From Candidatus Rifleibacterium sp. (GTDB lineage: Bacteria > Muiribacteriota > Ozemobacteria > Ozemobacterales > Ozemobacteraceae), in NCBI GenBank assembly GCA_035362315.1, contig DAOSDJ010000014.1, positions 9,419-73,418 on the forward strand: a stretch of 64,000 bases of DNA. The letters are read 5' to 3'. The stretch's first letter is position 1, and the number at the start of each line of letters is the position of its first letter. The notes beneath the pieces were generated by a model. That model saw nothing but the letters and a program-made list of their open reading frames with translations, searched no databases and was not told the origin of the DNA. Positions 987-19,791 of this stretch are shown one piece after another. The position numbers and the translations under genes are program-made.

Positions 987-1949
987 ATGAAAAAAATCCT
1001 GACTTTACTGGCAGTAATCATGACCGTGGCCTCGATGGGTCTGGCAGAGCCGATGAAGCTCGAACCAGCTCAGCAGAAAAATCTGAACGTATTTTTCAGC
1101 AACTTCTCTGAAGCCCAGGTTGCAAGCTTTTCTCAGGGCGCGCTGACCGATCAGACCATCGTCGACTTCGCTCTTCGGCACCTGTATCTCAACAAGTTCA
1201 AGTCGCTGAAACCTTCCAAAGACGGGCTTTCAGTCACGGCGACCACTGAGCAGGTCGACACGGCTGCGATAAAATACTTCGGGCAAAAGCCGGCGCAGCA
1301 CAAGGAAAAGACTTATTCAATCCCGCTTGCCGACGGCGAGGCATTCTTTTTCTCGCAGCTCGACACGCTCGAAGACATTGGCAGCGACACTTTCAAAGCC
1401 AGCGGCACCATTTACAGCACCGGTTCAGGCGGCACTCCCGACGTGCATGCAACTCCCGCAGACTGGGAAAAAGCCGGTGAAGAAGTAAGCGTCGCCGGCA
1501 AGTTCTCAGCTTTGATCAAAGCTCAGGATGAGCGCCACATTCTCGTCGAATATCTTCCGACCGAAATCGTTGCCGACGACGCCAGTACCGGCCCGATGAT
1601 CTGCGAATCAATTACCGACCCGCTCGAAGGTTCTGAAGCACCGGCGGCAGAACCTGCCAAAAAGGCAGACAACGCCCCGAAACTCGACAAGGAGCACGTC
1701 AAAAACCTTGTGACGAAAGATATTTTCGACTGGCAACTCCTCGACGAAGCCGGCAAAATCGCCCTCATACAGCAGATCAAACAGGTCTGGCGCGCCAATG
1801 GGCACGAAACCGATGCCAACGCAATGGAAGCCGGCGCCATCATTGAAAAAATGGTTCTCGGAGATCAGGCGAACGTGTTTGAATCTGCGTGCAAAGCGGC
1901 CGGCATCGACATGGAACCATATTGGAAAACCTATAACGATCAGGAGTAA
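987..1949 (+). CDS. secreted hypothetical protein
   Basis: Internal start MKKILTLLAVIMTVASMGLA is a signal peptide, preceded by ggag 8 nt upstream. The ORF-track start at 945 lacks an RBS. Confidence 0.55.
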   Translation: MKKILTLLAVIMTVASMGLAEPMKLEPAQQKNLNVFFSNFSEAQVASFSQGALTDQTIVDFALRHLYLNKFKSLKPSKDGLSVTATTEQVDTAAIKYFGQKPAQHKEKTYSIPLADGEAFFFSQLDTLEDIGSDTFKASGTIYSTGSGGTPDVHATPADWEKAGEEVSVAGKFSALIKAQDERHILVEYLPTEIVADDASTGPMICESITDPLEGSEAPAAEPAKKADNAPKLDKEHVKNLVTKDIFDWQLLDEAGKIALIQQIKQVWRANGHETDANAMEAGAIIEKMVLGDQANVFESACKAAGIDMEPYWKTYNDQE

Positions 1950-1954
1950 TTATC

Positions 1955-2821
1955 ATGCCTTCACTAAAACAGGTATGTGCTCTGCTTATCGCTTTTGCGA
2001 TCGGCTCTTCGGTTTCAGCACAGGCCGAAACATACAAACATCTGTCAGAGGCCCTGGCTAACCCCGAAAAAGCTACAAGACTGGATCTTGGGGCAGTATA
2101 TCAGGAAGATGCGGCTGAACCGGTCGAAGAAAACAACCCGGACTTTTCTCTGAAACTTTTGCCCGAAGCCTTTGGCAGCCTGACCAATCTGAAAGAACTG
2201 AATATCGGCGGCCTTGAAGCACTGGAAGAACTGCCAAAGGAACTCGGCAATCTCAAGAACCTTGAAAGCATCGTTATCGACAACGGCAACGGCTACCAGA
2301 TGAATGTCTCGCTGCCTGAAACGATTGCCGGTCTTGAGAAGCTGAAAATTCTGCGTCTCTACGGGGCTTTTGACGCTTCGGGTATTATGGAAAACGAAAA
2401 AGGCGAACCGGTTAAGGCAAAAAAGCTGCCGCAGGCTCTGGGAGCTCTTCAAAATCTTGAAGTTTTCGATATTGGCAGAAACGGGCTCAATGAAGTGCCG
2501 CCGCAGGTTGCCTCTCTTGCAAAACTTGTCACCCTGAATCTGGATTATAACGGCATCAAAGAACTGCCTGAGTTTGTCGGAAACCTCAAAAATCTGAAGA
2601 ATCTGACGATCAACTGCAACGGCGGTACCAGACTGCCTGATTCACTTAAAAATCTGAAAGGCCTCAATATTGCCATGGGCAATGCGGCATTGAAGCTTAA
2701 AGATCAGGAAGAGCTGCGAAAACGTTTTCCTGATGCCGTTTTCGATTTTTCCAGTGAATTCGACGACGAGACCGCCAACGAAATGATTCCGGAAGCTCCT
2801 GCCGACAACCAGGACAACTGA
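1955..2821 (+). CDS. secreted leucine-rich repeat (LRR) protein
   Basis: Signal peptide. Repeated LxxLxxLxLxxNxL units, for example LTNLKELNIGGLEALEELPKELGNLKNLESIVI and LAKLVTLNLDYNGIKELPEFVGNLKNLKNLTI. Confidence 0.7.
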   Translation: MPSLKQVCALLIAFAIGSSVSAQAETYKHLSEALANPEKATRLDLGAVYQEDAAEPVEENNPDFSLKLLPEAFGSLTNLKELNIGGLEALEELPKELGNLKNLESIVIDNGNGYQMNVSLPETIAGLEKLKILRLYGAFDASGIMENEKGEPVKAKKLPQALGALQNLEVFDIGRNGLNEVPPQVASLAKLVTLNLDYNGIKELPEFVGNLKNLKNLTINCNGGTRLPDSLKNLKGLNIAMGNAALKLKDQEELRKRFPDAVFDFSSEFDDETANEMIPEAPADNQDN

Positions 2822-3011
2822 CTCGACCTGATTCTTTTTCGACACTTTAACCAGTCTGTAAAAGCCATTATGGCTGACGCAGACTAAACTCTCTCTGCCA
2901 AGAACCCGGTCAGCAAGACTGTGCAGTTCGGCTTTAAATTCAGCGAGCGATTCGGCAGCGGCAGGCCCCTTTGGCACATTTTAAATTGAGCGCTCAAGCT
3001 CGATAGATAAT

Positions 3012-4289
3012 TCAGGCCGGGTCGAGAACAGTCAGGAATTTGTCGACGGCGGTGAAAAGCTCACCGGTCAGTTTGAGCATAAAAAAGCGGTCTTTGAGGT
3101 TGCCGGCGGTGATAAAGGTCTTTTCCTGGTCGGCAAGGCGAAAAATCGAAGGATCAGACTCGCGGAATGCTGTCTGCATTCTTGTGATGAAGTTGCGATA
3201 ACGGCTTTCGATCTCGGCGGCCGGCACTTCGTCACTGAAACTGCGGTTGGCAAAAAGAATGCGGTTGATGTTGAAAAGCCGTATAACCAGCTGGCGCTGG
3301 TGTTTCGGCGATCGGGTATTTTTGCTCTGCTGCTCGTAACGTTCAGCAACCCTGAAAAGACAATTGAAAAACAGGCGGCGCAGCTGACGATAAAACAGGC
3401 CGCCGCGTTCGATGCGGCTCTCAACGACGTATTTCTCAGGCTTCGGAACGGCAGCAAGAAAGCTGATCTGCTTGTTTGCCTCTTCGGCATGACCTTTGAG
3501 ACTCATCATCAAGCGCAGCAGGTCTCTGGCAAGCTCAAAATACATGCGAGTACACTTTTCGTAATCTTCAGACGCAGGAGATGAGACAATTTCTAAACTG
3601 CGGGCCTTCTGGTAGCGTTCTTTAAATTCAGCTGAGTTAAGCCAGTCGTTACAGGCATAATATACATGGCCAATATCAAGCAGCAGTTTTTCGGCACCGG
3701 CACTGCTGACTTTGCTGCCAAGGGCGGCACCCGGGGCATTGAACACATCTTTTACCAGTCGATTTTTCACCTCGGCATCTGATAGAGCGAAGGTTGTCAG
3801 CACTTCCTTTTCGCCGGTAAACGAAAGAATTCTCGTTGATGTAAGCGAACCACCCTTGCCCGAAGCAGCTTTCCAGTTAAAACCGGCGTTGATTTCATAG
3901 AATCCGGTAGTTTTTTTTCCGGAAACCTTGAGATTGAAGTTTTCCTTGAGAAGTTTGTGCAGGTTTGGGGTTTCGGTGTCGGTTATGCCCGGGTTCGAAA
4001 AGAAAATTGTCTCTCTGTCAGTCACAAAGGTCGAAAACGGGTAGAGCGCGCCGTCGGCATCGGCCAGACCGATCGCCTGCAGGCCATGCGGGTTCAGGTC
4101 GGCCTCCTGGTAGCATTGCTCGAGCACTTTCTCAGTCAGAGAAGCCGCGAGGAAATTTTCCGAAGTGAAGGTGGTTTCTTTTTTAAAGCTGTGCATGGCC
4201 TGAAAAAAAATAATCGAGGCCGAAACCAGCAGAAAAAAGCCGATCAGCAGTTCAAGCAGTGTCATACCACGGTTTGCTCGCTGGTTCAT
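3012..4289 (-). CDS. large type IV pilin-like / pseudopilin protein with prepilin N-terminal cleavage-methylation motif
   Basis: N-terminus MNQRANRG|MTLLELLIGFFLLV has G at -1 and E at +5, followed by a hydrophobic helix. 425 aa. Confidence 0.6.
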   Translation of the reverse strand: MNQRANRGMTLLELLIGFFLLVSASIIFFQAMHSFKKETTFTSENFLAASLTEKVLEQCYQEADLNPHGLQAIGLADADGALYPFSTFVTDRETIFFSNPGITDTETPNLHKLLKENFNLKVSGKKTTGFYEINAGFNWKAASGKGGSLTSTRILSFTGEKEVLTTFALSDAEVKNRLVKDVFNAPGAALGSKVSSAGAEKLLLDIGHVYYACNDWLNSAEFKERYQKARSLEIVSSPASEDYEKCTRMYFELARDLLRLMMSLKGHAEEANKQISFLAAVPKPEKYVVESRIERGGLFYRQLRRLFFNCLFRVAERYEQQSKNTRSPKHQRQLVIRLFNINRILFANRSFSDEVPAAEIESRYRNFITRMQTAFRESDPSIFRLADQEKTFITAGNLKDRFFMLKLTGELFTAVDKFLTVLDPA

Positions 4290-13852: not shown

Positions 13853-15160
13853 TCAATTCAGGGTCATGGCTGCGTGATAACAGCCACCGCCGTTCCACCA
13901 GGCCGAGAAGCTGTCAAACGACCTGACCTGCGGCACCGGGTCTTTGGCGGGATCATTATAATAAATATTGCCGCTGTCATCCACACCGGTAATAACGACA
14001 TAGTGGTTGTAGACGTTGGCAATAACCGGCTTGCCGGCCTTTATCTGCTCGCGCACCCACGACAAACCAACGCTGTAATGCCATTTTGCATTCGGGAAAC
14101 CATTGGCCCTGGCCCCGGTGAGCATACCAGCATGCGAAGTGCCCGCTGCGCCGGTCGAGCCACAGGTATTCCAGAGCGTAGAGGCCAGAGCGCCGGCATT
14201 CTGCTTGTTGTGATAGGCAAGAGCCATGCCGAGAGAAGTTGGACCACAGGCAGACCACGGGTATGGGCATTTAACATAACCCTGGCACTGCTGCGGCACG
14301 GGCAGAACGACCTTGCCATTGGCACCGGCAGCCGGGGTCACCGGAGTAGTGGTGCCAGAAGAAGGCTTAGAAGAAGAAACATAGCTGGCATGGCAATAAA
14401 CGATGCGCCCGTTCCAGCTGACTCTGTACCAGTCACCTTCTTTGCCGACGATATCGATCTTCGTGCCATAATTGAAAGTGGTGAGAATCGAGCCCCACGG
14501 GGCACTTCTGACATTGAGAACATCGGCAGTGACATAACCAGCCGAGGTGGCAGGAGTGCTGGCAGGCTGAGCCGGCGCAGTCGAAGAAGCACTGTCGGCG
14601 TTGATATAGGCCGAATGGCAATAGCCAACCGCGCCATTATAACTGACCCGGTACCATTCACCTTCCTGGCCAAGAATAGAGACTCTGGCACCGTTGGCGA
14701 ATGAACCGACGATGCTTCCCCACGGGCCGGTGCGAACATTCAGGCCCGGCACAGCGTTGACAGTACCACCGCGGGCAGCTGATGCCGCCGGCGTCGAGCT
14801 CTGAGTTATATATGCTGAATGGCAATAACCAACCGTGCCATTATAACTGACTTTGTACCATTCGCCCTCCTGGCCGATTACGGTCACGCTGGCGCCATTT
14901 CCGAATGAGCCGATGATCGCCCCCCACGGGCCATTACGAATATTGAGGCCAGGTATGGCCCTGACTGTACCACTGAAGGAACCACCCATGCCTGATGGAG
15001 CAGTAGAAGCTTCGGGCTGGCTTTTTGCCGGGTCAGAGATGACGACGGAACTCTGTCCGAAGACATCTGCAGCCGTCTGGGCTTTCAGCAGGTCCGATCC
15101 TGCGAAAACAAACAGGGGCAGCAACAGTAAAACAAAGACAAAATAATTTATGGGTTTCAT
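13853..15160 (-). CDS. secreted protein with three tandem SH3b domains and a C-terminal C39-like (papain-fold) peptidase domain
   Basis: RBS ggagg. Signal peptide MKPINYFVFVLLLLPLFVFA. Three repeats of GLNxRxGPWGxIxGSFxNGxxVxxxGQEGEWYxVSYNG. The C-terminus CGPTSLGMALAYH...H resembles the Peptidase_C39-like fold. Confidence 0.65.
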   Translation of the reverse strand: MKPINYFVFVLLLLPLFVFAGSDLLKAQTAADVFGQSSVVISDPAKSQPEASTAPSGMGGSFSGTVRAIPGLNIRNGPWGAIIGSFGNGASVTVIGQEGEWYKVSYNGTVGYCHSAYITQSSTPAASAARGGTVNAVPGLNVRTGPWGSIVGSFANGARVSILGQEGEWYRVSYNGAVGYCHSAYINADSASSTAPAQPASTPATSAGYVTADVLNVRSAPWGSILTTFNYGTKIDIVGKEGDWYRVSWNGRIVYCHASYVSSSKPSSGTTTPVTPAAGANGKVVLPVPQQCQGYVKCPYPWSACGPTSLGMALAYHNKQNAGALASTLWNTCGSTGAAGTSHAGMLTGARANGFPNAKWHYSVGLSWVREQIKAGKPVIANVYNHYVVITGVDDSGNIYYNDPAKDPVPQVRSFDSFSAWWNGGGCYHAAMTLN

Positions 15161-15359
15161 TCCGGTTTCCTCCAGAGAAACGATTGATAACACAATCGGC
15201 TATATATCTAATACCGCAAAAAACATGAAAAGTTCTCCGCCAGGATGTATTTTTTCAAAACCATGCCGCTTTGCGTTTTATTTTTTTGCAATCCAGCATT
15301 ACAAAACCAGCATTAAAAGCCAATAGCATTGATTCTAGAAAATATTTTTTAAATTTTTA

Positions 15360-15388
15360 TTGACACATTGCAGCAAGATTGTTAATAT
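15360..15388 (+). promoter_or_regulatory. sigma70-type promoter for phasin-like gene copy 1
   Basis: TTGACA - 17 nt (cattgcagcaagattgt) - TAATAT. A near-identical promoter precedes copy 2. Confidence 0.55.
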
Positions 15389-15456
15389 AAATTCATAACG
15401 CAGCGATCAATCAAACCAAAAGTTCGAAATCAATACTTCAAACAGGAGTTTCTAAA

Positions 15457-15783
15457 ATGACTAACAACACTAACAAATGGATGGAATTCTCAAACGAATA
15501 CGCTCAGCTCATGAACGAAAATTTTCAGGTCATGAACAAATTCTGGAACGCCACCATGGAACAGACCACCGGCTACACCAGAAAGAACATGGAACTGTTC
15601 TTCGACCACATGAACCGCAACGTAGAAGTCATGCACGAAATCTACAACAACACCATCCAGGGCAATGACGAACTGAAAGCCATCTACAAAGCCAACATCG
15701 AAAAATTCAACACCCGCTTTCAGAAAATTTATGAAGAAACCATGAAGAATATCGCTCCGAAGACCCAGAACGCCGGTCAGTAA
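15457..15783 (+). CDS. small helical phasin-like protein, paralog 1 (108 aa)
   Basis: RBS caggag. About 85% identical to the 18582..18908 product. All-helical composition reminiscent of the phasin family. Confidence 0.6.
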   Translation: MTNNTNKWMEFSNEYAQLMNENFQVMNKFWNATMEQTTGYTRKNMELFFDHMNRNVEVMHEIYNNTIQGNDELKAIYKANIEKFNTRFQKIYEETMKNIAPKTQNAGQ

Positions 15784-15979
15784 GAGTTTCGATAAACTAA
15801 GTTCCAATCAACTCCAGTGCGGGGGCCCGTGTCAGTGACACGGGCCCCTGATTTTTATTTCCGACACTTACGGCCGCTGCCAATTTCTGCGACGCAACAA
15901 TCAGCAGGTAAATTTTCCGGTTGAAAAAGCACAGATTCCTGAATAACTTTGAAGATACAGTTAAAATAGAGGCGAATAC

Positions 15980-17353
15980 ATGAAAAAGCTGCTTCTGGGT
16001 CTGCTGCTTCTCGTCGCCGGGTCATGCCCCGGCGCCATTCCACACCCGCGCGACTACGACTGGGGCACAATAACCGTTCCCGAGAATTATTCGTATGCCG
16101 GCAGCCAGAAAATCAGCATCTACTGGGAAAAACTCAAAGCCACCGGTGCCGCACCTGAAGCGATCGTCATGATCAATGGCGGCCCCGGCATGCCGCACGA
16201 CAGCTTTCATCAACCCGCAGGCACCGGCTATAACCGCGACTGGTTCTCGGCTCTGCGCACCCATTTCGACGTTTACTACTTCGACCAGCGTGGTACCGGC
16301 AATTCAGCCGGCCTCAGCTACACCAACCTCAGCACCCGCAATTACCGCACCTACGGCACCCCCGATATCTGCCGCGACATCGAAGAACTGCGCAAAAACG
16401 TCATCAAAAAGAAGCAGATCGCGGTGCTCGGCGAATCTTACGGCGGCGCGGTAGCGCTGACCTATGCAATCATGTATCCGGCCAATGTTTCGAAGCTGAT
16501 AATCCATGATTCGACCCCAAGCAACGCCTATTTCACCAACATGCACATCAACATGTCGAATGGCCTGACCGCACTCGAAGAGGTGCTGCCCGGAGTCGAA
16601 GAGAACATGCTCAGCTGCATCGAAAAATTCGACAACGGCGAAGTATCCAACGCCTACGGCTACAACCTGACCTCAAACGACTTTCTTACACTCTGCCTGC
16701 CTTATACCTATTCGCTGAGGGGCCAGATTGCCATGGCGACGATGGCGCTGCAGATCGCACAGAATGGCCAGTCAGACATTCTCGACGCCATTCTCGCCCC
16801 GGCCAGGGAAATGGCCGCCCGGGCCGCCTACAGTTCTCTGCCGGTGTCAATCGTGCTGGTGCAGGGCATTGAAATGCTCGACCAGCGAGCCATCAGCTCA
16901 GCCGCTGACAGCTCGCCCTGGACCAAAGCCTGGGCCAGCGAACGCATTTTTCAGCCCAGACTGGCATTCATGAAAGATTACAACATCACGCATTTTTCAG
17001 GGTTCAACGTCATCAGCCGACTTGGACAGATCAAAGCACCGACACTCGTGGTTGTCGGCGAAACCGATTTTATCTGCCCGCCAGAATATGCCGAAGTCAT
17101 GTATGAAGGCATACCCGATTGTCGCCTGCTTAAGGTCAAAAATGCCGCCCATGGCGGCTTTATCGAGCAGAACACTTTTGTTGTCGGAAAAATCCGCAAT
17201 TTCCTGCTCAATCATTACCCTGAAGAAGACGAGCGCATCACGCCGGTTGAAGAATTGCGCAGCCGCAGCCCCGAAGAAGCGGTTCAGATATGGCTTGACG
17301 GCGTAACACGTCTCGGTCTGACCGACGACTTTCTCAAAGAAACTCTTAAATAA
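15980..17353 (+). CDS. secreted alpha/beta hydrolase (prolyl aminopeptidase-like, S33 family)
   Basis: Signal peptide MKKLLLGLLLLVAGSCPGA. Nucleophile elbow VLGESYGGAVAL (GxSxG). HGG-like oxyanion region INGGPGMP. Confidence 0.8.
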   Translation: MKKLLLGLLLLVAGSCPGAIPHPRDYDWGTITVPENYSYAGSQKISIYWEKLKATGAAPEAIVMINGGPGMPHDSFHQPAGTGYNRDWFSALRTHFDVYYFDQRGTGNSAGLSYTNLSTRNYRTYGTPDICRDIEELRKNVIKKKQIAVLGESYGGAVALTYAIMYPANVSKLIIHDSTPSNAYFTNMHINMSNGLTALEEVLPGVEENMLSCIEKFDNGEVSNAYGYNLTSNDFLTLCLPYTYSLRGQIAMATMALQIAQNGQSDILDAILAPAREMAARAAYSSLPVSIVLVQGIEMLDQRAISSAADSSPWTKAWASERIFQPRLAFMKDYNITHFSGFNVISRLGQIKAPTLVVVGETDFICPPEYAEVMYEGIPDCRLLKVKNAAHGGFIEQNTFVVGKIRNFLLNHYPEEDERITPVEELRSRSPEEAVQIWLDGVTRLGLTDDFLKETLK

Positions 17354-17406
17354 ACCCTGTCGAAAAGGCTTCTGGTATCGCCGCAAAAAACACTTGCAAT
17401 CTGATT

Positions 17407-17445
17407 CTTTTTTAGTATCATTTAAATTAAATGATACTAAAAAAG
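17407..17445. promoter_or_regulatory. 39-bp near-perfect palindrome (putative Rrf2/NsrR-like operator) overlapping the RBS of the RIC gene
   Basis: cttttt TAGTATCATTTAA a TTAAATGATACTA aaaaag. It is symmetric about position 17426. Confidence 0.5.
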
Positions 17446-17453
17446 GAGCGTTT

Positions 17454-18188
17454 ATGTTTAACCTGAATCAATCGGTCGGCGAAATTGTGGCCGTCAACCC
17501 CTCTCTCTGGAAACTTTTTGAACATTACCACATCGATTATTGCTGCCATGGCGACAAGCCTCTTGCTGAAGCCTGCCGTGAAAAAGGCCTCGACCCTGAA
17601 GCCGTTCTCAGTGAGATAGAAAACCTGCCGACAGGCAAAGATCAGGTACAGACAGAACTCCTGAAGATGACACTTACCGAACTGGCCAATCATATAGAGC
17701 AAACGCATCACGTCTATCTGTATCGCGAGCTTTCTGAGCTGATCAGTCTTGCCGGACGCGTGACAGCAACCCATGCAGCAAGAGATACCCGCCTGCATCA
17801 GGTTCTGCAGGGAGTGACACTGCTGCAGTCCGAACTGATGAATCATCTGGCCAAGGAAGAGCAGATTCTTTTCCCGATGATTCGAGAGCTCGAGGCCAGC
17901 AATTCCTTACCATCTTTTCATTGCGGTTCGGTAGGCAACCCGATCAGACAGATGCTGACTGAACATGATGATGCCAGCGAACTGCTGCAGAAACTGCGCC
18001 GTCTCACCGATGGCTATCAGTCGCCAGAATGGGCCTGCAGAAGCATGCAGACCCTTTTTACCCAGCTGCAGAATCTCGAACACGACCTGCATCGCCACAT
18101 TCACAAGGAAAACACCATACTTTTCCCGGCAGCCATCGCCCTCGAAGAACAAAAAAGAACCGGAAAAACCTGCGCAACAAACTGCTGA
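17454..18188 (+). CDS. ytfE: iron-sulfur cluster repair di-iron protein (RIC/YtfE/ScdA family)
   Basis: RBS aaggag. N-terminal ScdA_N motif HYHIDYCCHGDKPLAEAC. Hemerythrin-like H/E-rich C-terminal region (HHVYLYRE, HLAKEEQILFP, HDLHRHIHKENTILFP). Confidence 0.8.
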   Translation: MFNLNQSVGEIVAVNPSLWKLFEHYHIDYCCHGDKPLAEACREKGLDPEAVLSEIENLPTGKDQVQTELLKMTLTELANHIEQTHHVYLYRELSELISLAGRVTATHAARDTRLHQVLQGVTLLQSELMNHLAKEEQILFPMIRELEASNSLPSFHCGSVGNPIRQMLTEHDDASELLQKLRRLTDGYQSPEWACRSMQTLFTQLQNLEHDLHRHIHKENTILFPAAIALEEQKRTGKTCATNC

Positions 18189-18493
18189 ACTCTGTACAAA
18201 CAAAGCTCAACCTATCCGCCGGCAACGGCTCGCAAATTGGATTTGATTGCTTTGTCTCCATCCATTGGCCTGCCAAACTTGATGCAGATTGTCTGTCATT
18301 TCGTCGCCGGCCGCCCCTCCGGGGCATAAACGCAGAAATGACAGAGGACTATGCAATTCTTGTGTAACAGATGACTACCCCGCTGCTCTTGTAATTTGGC
18401 CTGCGCCCCGCGATGGCAACAGCCAGAAAAAGGTTGTCAGAACTCCTGTCAGGCAATGGTTTTTGCACTGCCAAAAAAATAAAATCTTTTTTC

Positions 18494-18522
18494 TTGACGC
18501 ATTGCAGCATTTTTGTTATATT
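18494..18522 (+). promoter_or_regulatory. sigma70-type promoter for phasin-like gene copy 2
   Basis: TTGACG - 17 nt (cattgcagcatttttgt) - TATATT. Duplicate of the copy-1 promoter. Confidence 0.55.
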
Positions 18523-18581
18523 TATTTTGCAACGCAGCGATGCGGAAAATCTGAAATCAATACTTCAACAGGAGTTTTAAA

Positions 18582-18908
18582 ATGACTAACAACACTAACA
18601 AATGGATGGAATTCTCAAACGAATACGCTCAGCTCATGAACGAAAATTTTTCGGTTATGAACAAGTTCTGGAACGCTACCATGGAACAGCAGAGCGGCCA
18701 CACCAGAAAGAACATGGAAATGTTCTTCGAACACATGAATCGCAATGCTGAAATCATGCACGAAATCTACAACAACACCATCAAAGGCAACGACGAAATG
18801 AAAGCCGTTTTCAAAACCGGCGTTGAAAAATTCAACACCCGCTTTCAGAAAATTTACGAAGAAACCATGAAGAATCTGACCCCGAAGACCCAGAAGGCTG
18901 GTCAGTAA
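18582..18908 (+). CDS. small helical phasin-like protein, paralog 2 (108 aa)
   Basis: The 5' UTR and the first ~100 nt of the CDS are nearly identical to copy 1. Confidence 0.6.
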   Translation: MTNNTNKWMEFSNEYAQLMNENFSVMNKFWNATMEQQSGHTRKNMEMFFEHMNRNAEIMHEIYNNTIKGNDEMKAVFKTGVEKFNTRFQKIYEETMKNLTPKTQKAGQ

Positions 18909-19092
18909 GTTTCTGCAATTCACTGTCAGCGGTTGTAACAGCTTCTGACGGGGATCCTTCCCGACAAAAAAATCAGGTGCCTTCAGACCCGCGCGGTGCG
19001 CGGGTCTTTTGCTGTCGGCAAAACCGGATGAGAACTTTCTGAGAGGTGAAAAAGTATGTTAAAATTGTACAGAGCAATGGTGGACGCAAATA

Positions 19093-19791
19093 ATGTTTCA
19101 GACACCTGAAGCATCTGTGTTCCGGGTGAAAAAAGTGAAAATAACCAGAAACGAACTGCCGAAAAACCCATACCAGACGAATAAAAACCCGTCTGAAGGC
19201 GGAGCTTTGTCTGCAGTCGCCGCCAAGAGCCCCGACCCCACAACAATGTCTGAATCTGGAAATGCTACAGACAGGCAAAAGCCCGCAACTGTCGGCAAAG
19301 AAAGCCCAACCAGCAGAATTGCAGACAACAGCACCGGCAAAGACCAGAAAAAAGATGCGAATGCAGCCCCGGGCAACCCGGCAAAAGAGCACGACCCCGA
19401 AGAACTGGCGGTCATAAACGAGCTGAAAAGCACAGATCGCGAGGTGCGCGCCCATGAAGCCGCTCACGTTGCCGCCGGCGGTCAGTATGTTCAGGGCGGC
19501 GCCAGTTTTGAATACAAGACCGGGCCTGACGGCAAGCGCTATGCTGTTGGCGGCGAGGTTCAGATAGACACTTCCGAGGTTCCTGATGACCCGCAGGCCA
19601 CCATCGAAAAAATGGAAGTGGTGAAACGGGCGGCACTGGCCCCCAAAAACCCGTCGTCACAGGACCGCTCCGTTGCCGCAGCCGCCAACCGGGCTCAGGC
19701 GCAGGCGCGCATTGAGCTGCAGACCGAAAAAAAAGAAGAATCTGAAGATGGCGGCAGAAAAACTGCCCCGAAAATCGACATCAAAGCCTGA
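19093..19791 (+). CDS. SprA-related family putative zinc metalloprotease (HEXXH)
   Basis: VRAHEAAHVAAGG carries the HEAAH motif in a context typical of PF12118-like proteins. The start codon is uncertain because there is no clear RBS. Confidence 0.55.
   Translation: MFQTPEASVFRVKKVKITRNELPKNPYQTNKNPSEGGALSAVAAKSPDPTTMSESGNATDRQKPATVGKESPTSRIADNSTGKDQKKDANAAPGNPAKEHDPEELAVINELKSTDREVRAHEAAHVAAGGQYVQGGASFEYKTGPDGKRYAVGGEVQIDTSEVPDDPQATIEKMEVVKRAALAPKNPSSQDRSVAAAANRAQAQARIELQTEKKEESEDGGRKTAPKIDIKA

What the first reader, a model, noticed from the sequence alone, without database searches (positions are those of the whole stretch)
15360..18908. Duplicated promoter plus small phasin-like gene flanking an alpha/beta hydrolase and a RIC di-iron gene (3.1 kb direct repeat)
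Two 108-aa paralogs (15457..15783 and 18582..18908, ~85% identical protein) are each preceded by a near-consensus sigma70 promoter sharing the spacer core cattgcagca (TTGACA-17-TAATAT and TTGACG-17-TATATT). The 5' UTR and the first ~100 nt of the CDS are nearly identical in the two copies. They form direct repeats that bracket a secreted S33-type hydrolase and ytfE. This layout predicts very high expression of the small helical proteins and a recombination-prone segment. The proteins look like phasin or other granule- or surface-coating helical proteins, but the family assignment is uncertain.
Basis: seen in the sequence. Interest (0 to 1): 0.55.

Follow-up and report, generated by a model that had tools for sequence, protein, structure and literature searches.

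The report
Duplicated PhaR-controlled phasin-like genes
The two small duplicated genes are most likely unannotated coat proteins (phasins) for bioplastic storage granules in a Riflebacteria genome, switched on by the known granule-sensing repressor PhaR; this is a useful annotation of a known kind of system, not a new kind.

Summary
Two 108-aa ORFs (15457..15783 and 18582..18908) are 83% identical. Each has a 10/12 sigma-70-like promoter, a strong RBS and its own terminator. They flank an S33-like alpha/beta hydrolase and a RIC/YtfE gene. The repeat is about 430 bp (promoter, UTR and CDS) with a 3.1-kb period; it is not a 3.1-kb repeat.

The window comes from Candidatus Riflebacteria (Ozemobacteraceae). 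The proteins belong to a small, unannotated family. All 21 loci with a 102/104-aa member and readable downstream DNA place it directly upstream of phaB-phaC-phaE-phaA, some with phaR upstream. Members only about 30% identical also follow phaR.

All family promoters share one architecture. Two boxes match the footprinted PhaR operator TGCRNYGCASMA: one overlaps the -35/spacer and one covers the expected start site. A conspecific MAG carries phaR and the PHA cluster on other contigs.

Pfam Phasin_2 stays below threshold (19.8 and 15.3 vs 24.9 bits), and a profile-profile test against PhaP1 failed. The phasin call therefore rests on context, operator, amphipathic helices and codon bias, not on proven homology.

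The duplication is old, stable and under purifying selection. It is neither an assembly artefact nor visibly recombination-prone. This is a new member of a known kind, of modest interest.

The parts
15360..15388 (+). Promoter of copy 1: TTGACA-17-TAATAT with TG before the -10, preceded by an A/T-rich tract
   Evidence: 10/12. The same architecture is conserved in 43 unique family promoters.
15364..15375 (+). PhaR-box-like site A of copy 1 (CACATTGCAGCA, 10/12 to TGCRNYGCASMA). It overlaps the end of the -35 and the spacer.
   Evidence: consensus from PMC6201568.
15394..15405 (+). Degenerate site B of copy 1 (CATAACGCAGCG, 8/12 by my own count; below the 10/12 listing threshold of the scan). 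The TGC half-site is lost. It lies just downstream of the -10.
   Evidence: Sequence (D4). The degenerate state is conserved in the copy-1 orthologues of L001, L010, L012, L013 and L014.
15457..15783 (+). Copy 1: 108-aa phasin-like protein, with RBS AGGAG at 15444-15448
15820..15850 (+). Intrinsic terminator of copy 1 (14-bp stem, 11 GC pairs, T-run)
15885..15899 (.). PhaR-box-like palindromic site upstream of the hydrolase gene: TGCGTCGCAGAA 12/12 on the - strand, TGCGACGCAACA 11/12 on the + strand
   Evidence: The TGC and GCA halves are conserved while the R-N-Y positions vary in L001, L010, L012 and L013. Function is inferred only.
15980..17353 (+). Alpha/beta hydrolase, S33 proline-iminopeptidase-like, with an N-terminal signal or lipobox-like sequence (LLLLVAGSC) and a GESYG nucleophile elbow. 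It is a neighbour, not shown to be part of the system.
   Evidence: The signal peptide and the GESYG motif are my own readings of the translation.
17454..18188 (+). RIC/YtfE di-iron repair protein. It is a neighbour, is absent between the copies in L012, and is not part of the system.
   Evidence: TIGR03652, 222.5 bits vs cutoff 204.7.
18494..18522 (+). Promoter of copy 2: TTGACG-17-TATATT with TG before the -10
   Evidence: 10/12.
18498..18509 (+). PhaR-box-like site A of copy 2 (CGCATTGCAGCA, 11/12). It overlaps the -35 and the spacer.
18528..18539 (+). PhaR-box-like site B of copy 2 (TGCAACGCAGCG, 11/12). It starts 6 nt after the -10, over the expected transcription start.
18582..18908 (+). 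Copy 2: 108-aa phasin-like protein, with RBS AGGAG at 18570-18574. This is the ancestral position, directly upstream of the SprA-related gene.
18985..19007 (+). Intrinsic terminator of copy 2

Best explanation
Both ORFs encode small, all-helical, amphipathic phasin-type proteins that coat polyhydroxyalkanoate (PHA) granules. They are dispersed paralogs of the phasin gene that sits in the organism's phaP-phaB-phaC-phaE-phaA cluster elsewhere in the genome.

Proposed mechanism:
- Each copy is a monocistronic unit with a near-consensus sigma-70 promoter, a strong RBS and its own terminator.
- Two PhaR operator boxes flank the core promoter. One overlaps the -35 and spacer, and the other covers the expected start site.
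- Without PHA, PhaR sits on these boxes and blocks RNA polymerase.
- When PHA granules form, PhaR is titrated onto the polymer. The promoters then fire and the protein is made in bulk to cover the granule surface.
- Copy 2 keeps two good boxes (11/12 each). Copy 1 has lost half of the downstream box (10/12 and 8/12), so it is predicted to be leakier.

Shown here: gene structure, family membership, genomic linkage, box matches and their conservation, purifying selection, codon bias, and presence of phaR and the PHA cluster in a conspecific MAG.

Inferred: granule binding, PhaR binding, the titration mechanism (carried over from Proteobacteria) and the regulatory difference between the copies.
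For: Gene neighbourhood:
- All 21 distinct loci with a 102/104-aa family member and readable downstream DNA have it immediately upstream of phaB-phaC-phaE-(PhaC-like hydrolase)-phaA. Some also have phaR (PF07879) directly upstream.
- Members only about 28-30% identical (P0057, P0052) also lie directly downstream of phaR, and P0052 is followed by an SDR phaB-like gene.
- 15 of the 16 MAGs with a 108/112-aa-type paralog also carry the cluster-linked type.

The window's own species:
- MAG JANJUX01 contains L014, which is 98.1% identical to the window over 12.6 kb.
- The same MAG contains the PHA cluster with a third paralog (L034) and phaR (JANJUX010000040.1).

Promoter and operator:
- 43 unique family promoters share TTGAC(A/G)C-nnTGCAGCAA ... 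-10 ... TTGCAACGCAGCAA.
- The DNase-footprinted Bradyrhizobium PhaR consensus TGCRNYGCASMA (PMC6201568) matches 12/12 in 21 of 43 promoters and at least 11/12 in 37 of 43. Background is 0.46 hits per kb.
- The sites also fit the S. meliloti palindrome YGCRNYGCR, for which point mutations abolished EMSA shifts (PMC12542648).
- The same layout persists in L048, where the protein is only about 31% identical.

Protein properties:
- The AlphaFold2 model has three helices, at residues 2-34, 42-69 and 71-99 (mean pLDDT 72.6).
- Hydrophobic moments are 0.41-0.56, above shuffled sequences.
- There is no signal peptide.

Weak sequence signal: Phasin_2 is the most frequent weak Pfam hit. 37 of 49 members match at E<=0.1, and distant members reach 24.1, 24.0 and 23.5 bits against the 24.9 cutoff.

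Expression proxies: 10/12 promoters with TG, an AGGAG RBS, and a C-ending codon fraction of 0.81 against a median of 0.53 for 40 window ORFs, with GAA 23:0 and CAG 13:0.

Both copies are functional genes: dN/dS is 0.22-0.28 between paralogs and 0-0.13 between orthologs.
Against: - No member reaches the Pfam Phasin_2 gathering score.
- NCBIfam phasin models score far below their cutoffs.
- hhalign against a narrow Cupriavidus PhaP1 alignment gives 0.9% probability.
- PDB sequence and fold searches give nothing significant.
- The two window copies are themselves not next to any PHA gene, and none lies in the 64-kb window.
- The PhaR consensus comes from Alphaproteobacteria. It is short and is not enriched in the window as a whole: 26 matches at up to one mismatch against 27 expected.
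- Copy 1's downstream box is poor (8/12).
- No expression, proteomic or granule-binding data exist for Riflebacteria.
- The loci compared are phylogenetically related, so the counts of promoters or loci are not independent events.
Confidence: 0.8

Rival explanations
1. The proteins belong to the PhaR regulon and the PHA gene neighbourhood but are not structural granule coats. They might be small regulators or adaptors, such as a depolymerase activator like ApdA, a synthase modulator, or a chaperone-like stress protein. The two dispersed copies could serve roles unrelated to granules.
For: - Sequence homology to recognised phasin families is unproven.
- The dispersed 108-aa copies sit in varied, non-PHA contexts.
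- Paralogs differ mostly by amino-acid changes: 22 nonsynonymous vs 14 synonymous differences.
- The phasin review describes activator and chaperone-like roles for some phasins (PMC5658603).
Against: - Position between phaR and phaB, small size, an all-amphipathic-helix build, a very strong promoter and codon bias are the classic profile of a bulk structural phasin.
- The known adaptor proteins of this sort are themselves granule-bound phasin-family proteins (my own background knowledge), so this rival overlaps heavily with the main reading.
Confidence: 0.13
2. They are small Met/His/Asn-rich helical metal- or nitrosative-stress proteins that work with the neighbouring RIC/YtfE di-iron repair gene. 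The conserved DHMNRN..MHE motif would act as a metal ligand set.
For: - Adjacency to RIC in the window and in L001, L010, L013 and L014.
- H51, M52 and M59 are invariant and H60 is nearly invariant (at least 90%) within the close family.
- Met makes up 8-10% of the residues.
Against: - RIC is missing between the copies in L012, and is not adjacent to the small gene in L016, L021 or in any other context.
- The His/Met motif is not conserved in distant members. Only F49 is invariant in A2.
- RIC has its own promoter-like site and a conserved palindromic operator, and copy 1 ends in a strong terminator.
- The family's conserved partners are phaR and phaBCEA, not RIC.
Confidence: 0.04
3. The duplication is an assembly artefact or a very recent, unstable, recombination-prone repeat.
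For: In one fragmented MAG (DAOQWI01) the contigs break between the two copies (L013 and L011). This is the behaviour expected of repeats in short-read assemblies.
Against: - Four independent assemblies carry both copies on one contig (L001 of 1.25 Mb, L010, L012, L014).
- The copies are only 89% identical in DNA, with unrelated flanks and different terminators.
- Orthologs are much closer than paralogs, and both copies are under purifying selection.
- No single-copy recombinant is seen among close relatives.
Confidence: 0.03

Closest known systems
Phasins of the Pfam Phasin_2 family (PF09361), such as Cupriavidus necator PhaP1 and the Bradyrhizobium and Sinorhizobium PhaP proteins, with their PhaR/AniA repressor circuit
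   Same: - Small, cytoplasmic, all-helical, amphipathic proteins.
- The gene lies next to phaR and the PHA synthesis genes.
- There are several dispersed paralogs per genome.
- The strong promoter carries two PhaR boxes of the TGC-N3-GCA type around the core promoter elements (PMC6201568, PMC12542648).
- Phasin_2 is the most consistent weak Pfam hit.
   Different: - No member passes the Pfam or NCBIfam thresholds, and the profile-profile comparison with PhaP1 relatives fails.
- The composition is Asn/Met/Glu/Phe-rich rather than Ala-rich.
- The host is Candidatus Riflebacteria with a class III-type PhaC-PhaE synthase.
- The boxes lie at the -35/spacer and at +1, whereas in the rhizobia they flank the -35.
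Phasins in class III PhaC/PhaE gene clusters (for example Allochromatium vinosum and Synechocystis PhaP); this comparison is from my own background knowledge and was not tested here
   Same: A short phasin of roughly 100 aa or a little more is encoded together with phaC-phaE, phaA and phaB.
   Different: No sequence comparison was made here. Regulation by a PHB_acc_N-type PhaR is not established for those systems, to my knowledge.
Multi-phasin systems with differential PhaR control (C. necator PhaP1-7, B. diazoefficiens PhaP1-5)
   Same: Paralogous phasin genes are scattered in the genome with PhaR sites of differing quality. PhaR represses phaP1 but acts differently on phaP3 in C. necator (PMC12849132 title and abstract).
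   Different: Here two of the paralogs form a 430-bp direct repeat, 3.1 kb apart, around unrelated genes. No expression data exist.

Membership tests
Pfam Phasin_2 (PF09361) and NCBIfam phasin models (TIGR01985 and relatives) | Score at or above the curated cutoff of the family HMM | tested here: not met
   - Copy 2 scores 19.8 bits (E 9e-4) and copy 1 scores 15.3 bits (E 0.024), against a cutoff of 24.9.
- The best score among distant relatives is 24.1 bits.
- TIGR01985 gives 12.6-14.4 bits against a cutoff of 99.7.
- Phasin_2 is nonetheless the most frequent weak hit, in 37 of 49 members.
Pfam Phasin_2 (PF09361) | Profile-profile similarity to bona fide members | tested here: not met
   hhalign of A2 against an alignment of 27 PF09361-annotated PhaP1 relatives gives probability 0.9% and E 0.064. 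That alignment is narrow (at least 72% identity), so the test is weak. The broader Pfam seed could not be used.
Phasin (functional class: PHA granule-associated protein) | Small, non-enzymatic protein that is predominantly alpha-helical and amphipathic | tested here: met
   The proteins are 108 aa. The AlphaFold2 model has three helices covering about 83% of the chain. Maximum hydrophobic moments are 0.41-0.56, with a shuffle fraction of 0.02-0.13. There is no enzymatic domain.
Phasin (functional class) | Gene linked to PHA synthase or phaR genes, and the organism has a PHA pathway | tested here: met
   This is met for the family: 21 loci have the small gene followed by phaB-phaC-phaE-phaA, and distant members lie downstream of phaR. 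The window's two copies are unlinked to PHA genes. The conspecific MAG JANJUX01 has the cluster (L034) and phaR (L072).
Phasin (functional class) / PhaR regulon | PhaR operator in the promoter | tested here: met
   This was tested by sequence match only. Copy 2 has two 11/12 matches to TGCRNYGCASMA, at the -35/spacer and at +1. Copy 1 has 10/12 and 8/12. The boxes are conserved in position across 43 promoters. Actual binding was not tested.
Phasin (functional class) | Physical association with PHA granules and abundance that follows PHA accumulation | not testable with these tools
   No expression, proteomic or biochemical data are available, and no literature on Riflebacteria phasins was found.
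RIC / YtfE (TIGR03652), for the neighbouring gene 17454..18188 | Score above the equivalog cutoff, with an ScdA_N plus hemerythrin-like architecture | tested here: met
   222.5 bits against a cutoff of 204.7. ScdA_N has E 6e-23 and Hemerythrin has E 3e-19.
Peptidase S33 / proline iminopeptidase family, for the neighbouring gene 15980..17353 | Alpha/beta-hydrolase fold with a GxSxG nucleophile, and a score above the subfamily cutoff | tested here: inconclusive
   Abhydrolase_1 (E 7e-24) and Hydrolase_4 are above their cutoffs. A GESYG motif is present (my reading of the translation). TIGR01250 gives 92 bits against a cutoff of 167.65. The best PDB relatives are proline iminopeptidases at E 7e-12. 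The protein is an S33-like hydrolase whose substrate is unknown.

The most novel reading that the evidence does not exclude
This may be an unrecognised sequence family of phasins, effectively a fifth family beside PF05597, PF09602, PF09650 and PF09361. It would be confined to Riflebacteria and a few neighbouring lineages.

Its promoters show that the PhaR operator code (TGC-N3-GCA) and the granule-titration switch are conserved from Alphaproteobacteria to a deeply separate candidate phylum.

In the window's lineage the PhaR regulon would also reach beyond PHA. The dispersed paralogs and a conserved PhaR-like box in front of a secreted S33-like hydrolase would tie carbon-storage status to other functions.
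Probability: 0.35. Interest if true: 0.45.

Novelty: new member of a known kind. Interest (0 to 1): 0.3.

Why it matters
- It gives a concrete, testable function to a family annotated only as 'hypothetical protein' (one source name is even 'nucleotidyltransferase'). It also shows that Riflebacteria/Ozemobacteraceae, which are common in anaerobic digesters and subsurface samples, encode a complete PhaR-phasin-PhaCE PHA system.
- It shows that curated HMM thresholds miss real phasin-type genes in candidate phyla. Gene neighbourhood and operator conservation can recover them.
- The apparent conservation of the PhaR box across phyla would allow prediction of PhaR regulons in uncultured bacteria.
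- Small, strongly expressed amphipathic phasins also have practical uses as PHA affinity tags and biosurfactants (PMC5658603).
- For specialists the result is expected rather than surprising.

Tried and rejected
1. PDB sequence search with the family profile returned nothing below E 0.06.
2. Foldseek of the AlphaFold2 model against the PDB returned no hit at E<=0.001, only generic helical hairpins and bundles.
3. hhalign against a PhaP1 alignment gave no support.
4. An Rfam scan of 15200-19100 at E<=1 returned nothing, so the conserved 5'UTR is not a known RNA element.
5. The window-wide count of PhaR-box matches is not enriched (26 vs 27 expected). The argument therefore rests on position and conservation, not on density.
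6. tblastn of PHA proteins against the window found no PHA genes within the 64 kb.
7. The exhaustive HMMER search of 1.84 billion representatives found only 17 hits and no bridge to canonical phasins. One hit, P0051, is a eukaryotic VWA-repeat protein and was judged spurious.
phaR in the window's species was found through cluster look-ups instead.
10. A search for a PhaR box in the phaR operon's own upstream region found none at 11/12 or better, so there is no support for autoregulation.
11. Gene conversion between the two copies was considered and rejected, because orthologs group by copy.
12. The metal-binding or RIC-partner idea was rejected, because both the adjacency and the motif are not conserved.

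Full report
**1. What is in the sequence**

The window carries two 108-aa ORFs on the + strand, at 15457..15783 and 18582..18908. They are 83% identical and 94% similar without gaps. At DNA level they are 90% identical over 300 nt, with 3125 nt start-to-start spacing.

Each ORF is preceded by the best-scoring promoter-like site in the region: TTGACA-17-TAATAT at 15360-15388 and TTGACG-17-TATATT at 18494-18522. Both score 10/12 and have TG before the -10. Each has an AGGAG ribosome-binding site 8 nt before the ATG, and each is followed by its own, different, intrinsic terminator (15820-15850 and 18985-19007).

Similarity starts a few bases upstream of the -35 and stops at the stop codon, and the flanks are unrelated. 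The repeat is therefore a unit of about 430 bp (promoter, UTR and CDS) present twice, 3.1 kb apart.

Two genes lie between the copies:
- An alpha/beta hydrolase at 15980..17353. It matches Abhydrolase_1, its nearest PDB relatives are proline iminopeptidases, and by my reading of the translation it has a signal or lipobox-like N-terminus.
- A RIC/YtfE gene at 17454..18188, which scores above the TIGR03652 cutoff.

The first 69 nt of the CDS are identical, but the UTR is only partly similar.

**2. Source organism and family**

All 49 homologues found by the word-indexed search are 58-98% identical, and those that carry a source name come from Candidatus Riflebacteria or Rifleibacterium MAGs. None has a precomputed Pfam domain. 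Source names are 'hypothetical protein', plus one 'nucleotidyltransferase'.

An exhaustive HMMER profile search of 1.84 billion cluster representatives found only 17 representatives at E<=0.001. The family is therefore small and lineage-restricted. A few members have diverged to about 20-30% identity.

**3. Not an artefact, and not unstable**

The same layout (small gene, hydrolase, RIC, small gene) occurs contiguously in three independent assemblies: L001 on a 1.25-Mb JGI contig, L010 and L014. L012 also carries both copies but lacks RIC. L014 (MAG JANJUX01) is 98.1% identical to the window over 12.6 kb.

| Comparison | DNA identity | dS | dN/dS |
|---|---|---|---|
| Orthologous copies across MAGs | 96-98.5% | 0.06-0.23 | 0-0.13 |
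| The two paralogs within a genome | 87.5-89% | 0.32-0.42 | 0.22-0.28 |

The duplication predates the divergence of these MAGs, the copies do not homogenise each other, and both are under purifying selection.

The more distant relatives L016 and L021 have hydrolase, one small gene and the SprA-related gene. Copy 2 therefore sits in the ancestral position and copy 1 is the derived one. No sampled genome shows a deletion between the repeats. RIC is an indel inside the unique spacer.

**4. Direct family tests**

- Pfam Phasin_2 is the top hit for both copies but stays below the gathering score (19.8 and 15.3 vs 24.9 bits).
- It recurs as a weak hit in 37 of 49 members. It reaches 24.1, 24.0 and 23.5 bits in distant members.
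- NCBIfam phasin models score far below their cutoffs.
- A profile-profile comparison with an alignment of 27 PF09361-annotated PhaP1 relatives gave 0.9% probability.
- The AlphaFold2 model (mean pLDDT 72.6) has three helices. Fold and sequence searches of the PDB are uninformative.

Homology to a recognised phasin family is therefore unproven.

**5. Gene neighbourhood**

A 64%-identical 104-aa member in a 5.2-Mb Ozemobacteraceae chromosome lies inside a full PHA cluster. The order is lipase-like gene, phaR (PHB_acc_N), small gene, phaB, phaC (PhaC_N plus Abhydrolase_1), phaE (PHA_synth_III_E), a PhaC-like hydrolase, and phaA. A second genome shows the same order.

A scan of GTDB species genomes gave 38 loci. 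tblastn with the PHA proteins showed that every one of the 21 distinct loci with a 102/104-aa-type gene and readable downstream DNA has phaB-phaC directly downstream, followed by phaE, the PhaC-like hydrolase and phaA wherever the contig extends that far. Of the 16 MAGs with a 108/112-aa-type paralog, 15 also hold the cluster-linked type.

Two very divergent members (about 28-30% identity) also sit immediately downstream of phaR, and one is followed by an SDR phaB-like gene.

The window itself has no PHA genes. The conspecific MAG JANJUX01 has the PHA cluster with a third paralog on another contig (L034). It also has phaR on a third contig (JANJUX010000040.1, L072). In L010/L035 the third paralog lies about 70 kb downstream on the same contig, just beyond the end of the window.

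**6. Promoter and operator**

Aligning the 130 nt upstream of 43 unique family genes shows one architecture in both the cluster-linked and the dispersed types. It runs: A/T tract, cTTGAC(A/G)C, nnTGCAGCAA, GATAAT or TAATAT, TTGCAACGCAGCAA.

The boxes match the PhaR operator defined by DNase I footprinting in Bradyrhizobium diazoefficiens, TGCRNYGCASMA (PMC6201568). They also fit the palindrome YGCRNYGCR, which was validated by EMSA and mutation in Sinorhizobium meliloti (PMC12542648).
- The consensus matches 12/12 in 21 of 43 promoters and at least 11/12 in 37 of 43. Background is 0.46 such hits per kb across 757 kb of loci.
- Copy 2 in the window has CGCATTGCAGCA (18498-18509, 11/12), overlapping the -35 and spacer. 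It also has TGCAACGCAGCG (18528-18539, 11/12), starting 6 nt after the -10.
- Copy 1 has CACATTGCAGCA (15364-15375, 10/12) and a degraded CATAACGCAGCG (15394-15405, 8/12 by my count). This state is conserved in its orthologues.
- The same layout persists in L048, where the protein is only about 31% identical.

Caveats: the consensus is short, it was taken from another phylum, and it is not enriched in the window overall. The weight of the argument lies in the fixed position and the deep conservation.

**7. Further properties**

- The three helices are amphipathic, with maximum hydrophobic moments of 0.41-0.56, above shuffles. This fits the general phasin description in PMC5658603.
- Codon usage is strongly biased. 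The C-ending fraction for Asn, Phe, Tyr, His, Asp and Ile is 0.81, against a median of 0.53 in 40 window ORFs. GAA:GAG is 23:0 and CAG:CAA is 13:0. This holds despite lower G+C (43% vs 52%), and it fits high expression.
- No Rfam family matches the region.

**8. Interpretation**

The most likely reading (about 0.8) is that both ORFs are phasin-type PHA granule coat proteins. They are dispersed paralogs of the cluster phaP, transcribed from strong promoters that PhaR blocks until PHA granules titrate it away.
- Gene structure, linkage, box matches, selection and the presence of phaR and phaCE in the species are shown here.
- Granule binding, PhaR binding and the predicted leakier control of copy 1 are inferred.
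- The hydrolase and RIC are neighbours and not demonstrable parts of the system. A conserved PhaR-like box at 15885-15899 upstream of the hydrolase deserves a test.

Rivals are a PhaR-regulon protein with a non-structural role (0.13), a RIC-linked metal or stress protein (0.04), and an artefact or unstable repeat (0.03).

**9. Comparison with what is known, and novelty**

Functionally this is the familiar PhaR-phasin circuit with multiple phasin paralogs, as in Cupriavidus, Bradyrhizobium and Sinorhizobium. As a sequence family it fails the Phasin_2 membership tests. It is either a very divergent Phasin_2 branch or a separate family.

No paper in the searched library that mentions Riflebacteria, Rifleibacterium or Ozemobacter also mentions phasins; the one paper linking Riflebacteria to PHA only lists a PhaC.

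I rate it a new member of a known kind. It is useful for annotation and for predicting PhaR regulons in uncultured phyla, but it would not surprise a specialist (interest 0.3).

Noticed in passing
window 17394-17447: An inverted repeat with 20-bp arms (TTCTTTTTTAGTATCATTTAAATTAAATGATACTAAAAAAGGA) overlaps a promoter-like site (TTGCAA-16-TATCAT) directly upstream of the RIC/ytfE start codon. It is conserved in L001, L003, L013 and L014, and partly in L010. It looks like the operator of an NO- or redox-responsive repressor; the regulator was not identified.
   Followed up: partly
window 15885-15899: A PhaR-consensus-like palindromic site (12/12 on the - strand, 11/12 on the + strand) lies between copy 1's terminator and the hydrolase start. 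In L001, L010, L012 and L013 the TGC and GCA halves are conserved while the degenerate R-N-Y positions vary. The secreted hydrolase may belong to the PhaR regulon.
   Followed up: partly
L012 9600-9908 vs window 17335-18489: The relative CAZFUG01 has both small-gene copies and the hydrolase but lacks the RIC gene. About 1.15 kb of the window is replaced by about 0.3 kb. RIC is therefore an indel in this locus.
   Followed up: partly
L005 5923-7720; L009 5769-7572; L060-L072 about 1656-3591: In Riflebacteria, phaR overlaps by up to about 20 nt the 3' end of a roughly 435-455-aa lipase-like gene (Lipase_2, DUF7379 and Palm_thioest weak hits) that has an N-terminal hydrophobic segment. This holds whether or not the pair is next to the PHA cluster. 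It may be a PHA-related esterase or depolymerase. No PhaR box of 11/12 or better lies upstream of this operon.
   Followed up: no
L023 (JAKQXK01), L024 (SABV01), L036 and L042 (DYKG01): MAGs labelled Spirochaetota, Erysipelotrichia and Candidatus Methylomirabilis carry Riflebacteria-type small genes and PHA clusters at 65-78% protein identity to L005. This suggests mis-binning, mislabelling or horizontal transfer.
   Followed up: no
P0051 / L050 (GCA_910592395.2, 21-Mb chromosome): A 2693-aa eukaryotic VWA-repeat protein matches the family profile in 12 stretches (E 7e-23). This is probably compositional or repeat-driven, but it remains unexplained.
   Followed up: no
window 15425-15433 and 18552-18560; many loci: A conserved (C/T)GAAATCAA motif occurs in the 5'UTR about 25-35 nt before the ATG in many family members. 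No Rfam family matches it. It could be a translation or stability element.
   Followed up: no
window 13853-15193 (-): A secreted protein with three SH3_3 domains and a C39-like peptidase domain contains internal DNA repeats with a period of 204-225 nt (D2, D3, D5). It is a conserved upstream neighbour of copy 1 in relatives.
   Followed up: no
L005 10705-11763 and equivalents in all PHA clusters: The PHA clusters carry a second 352-aa alpha/beta hydrolase that is about 29% identical to PhaC and has a weak PHB_depo_C hit. It lies between phaE and phaA. It could be a second synthase-like subunit or an intracellular depolymerase.
   Followed up: no
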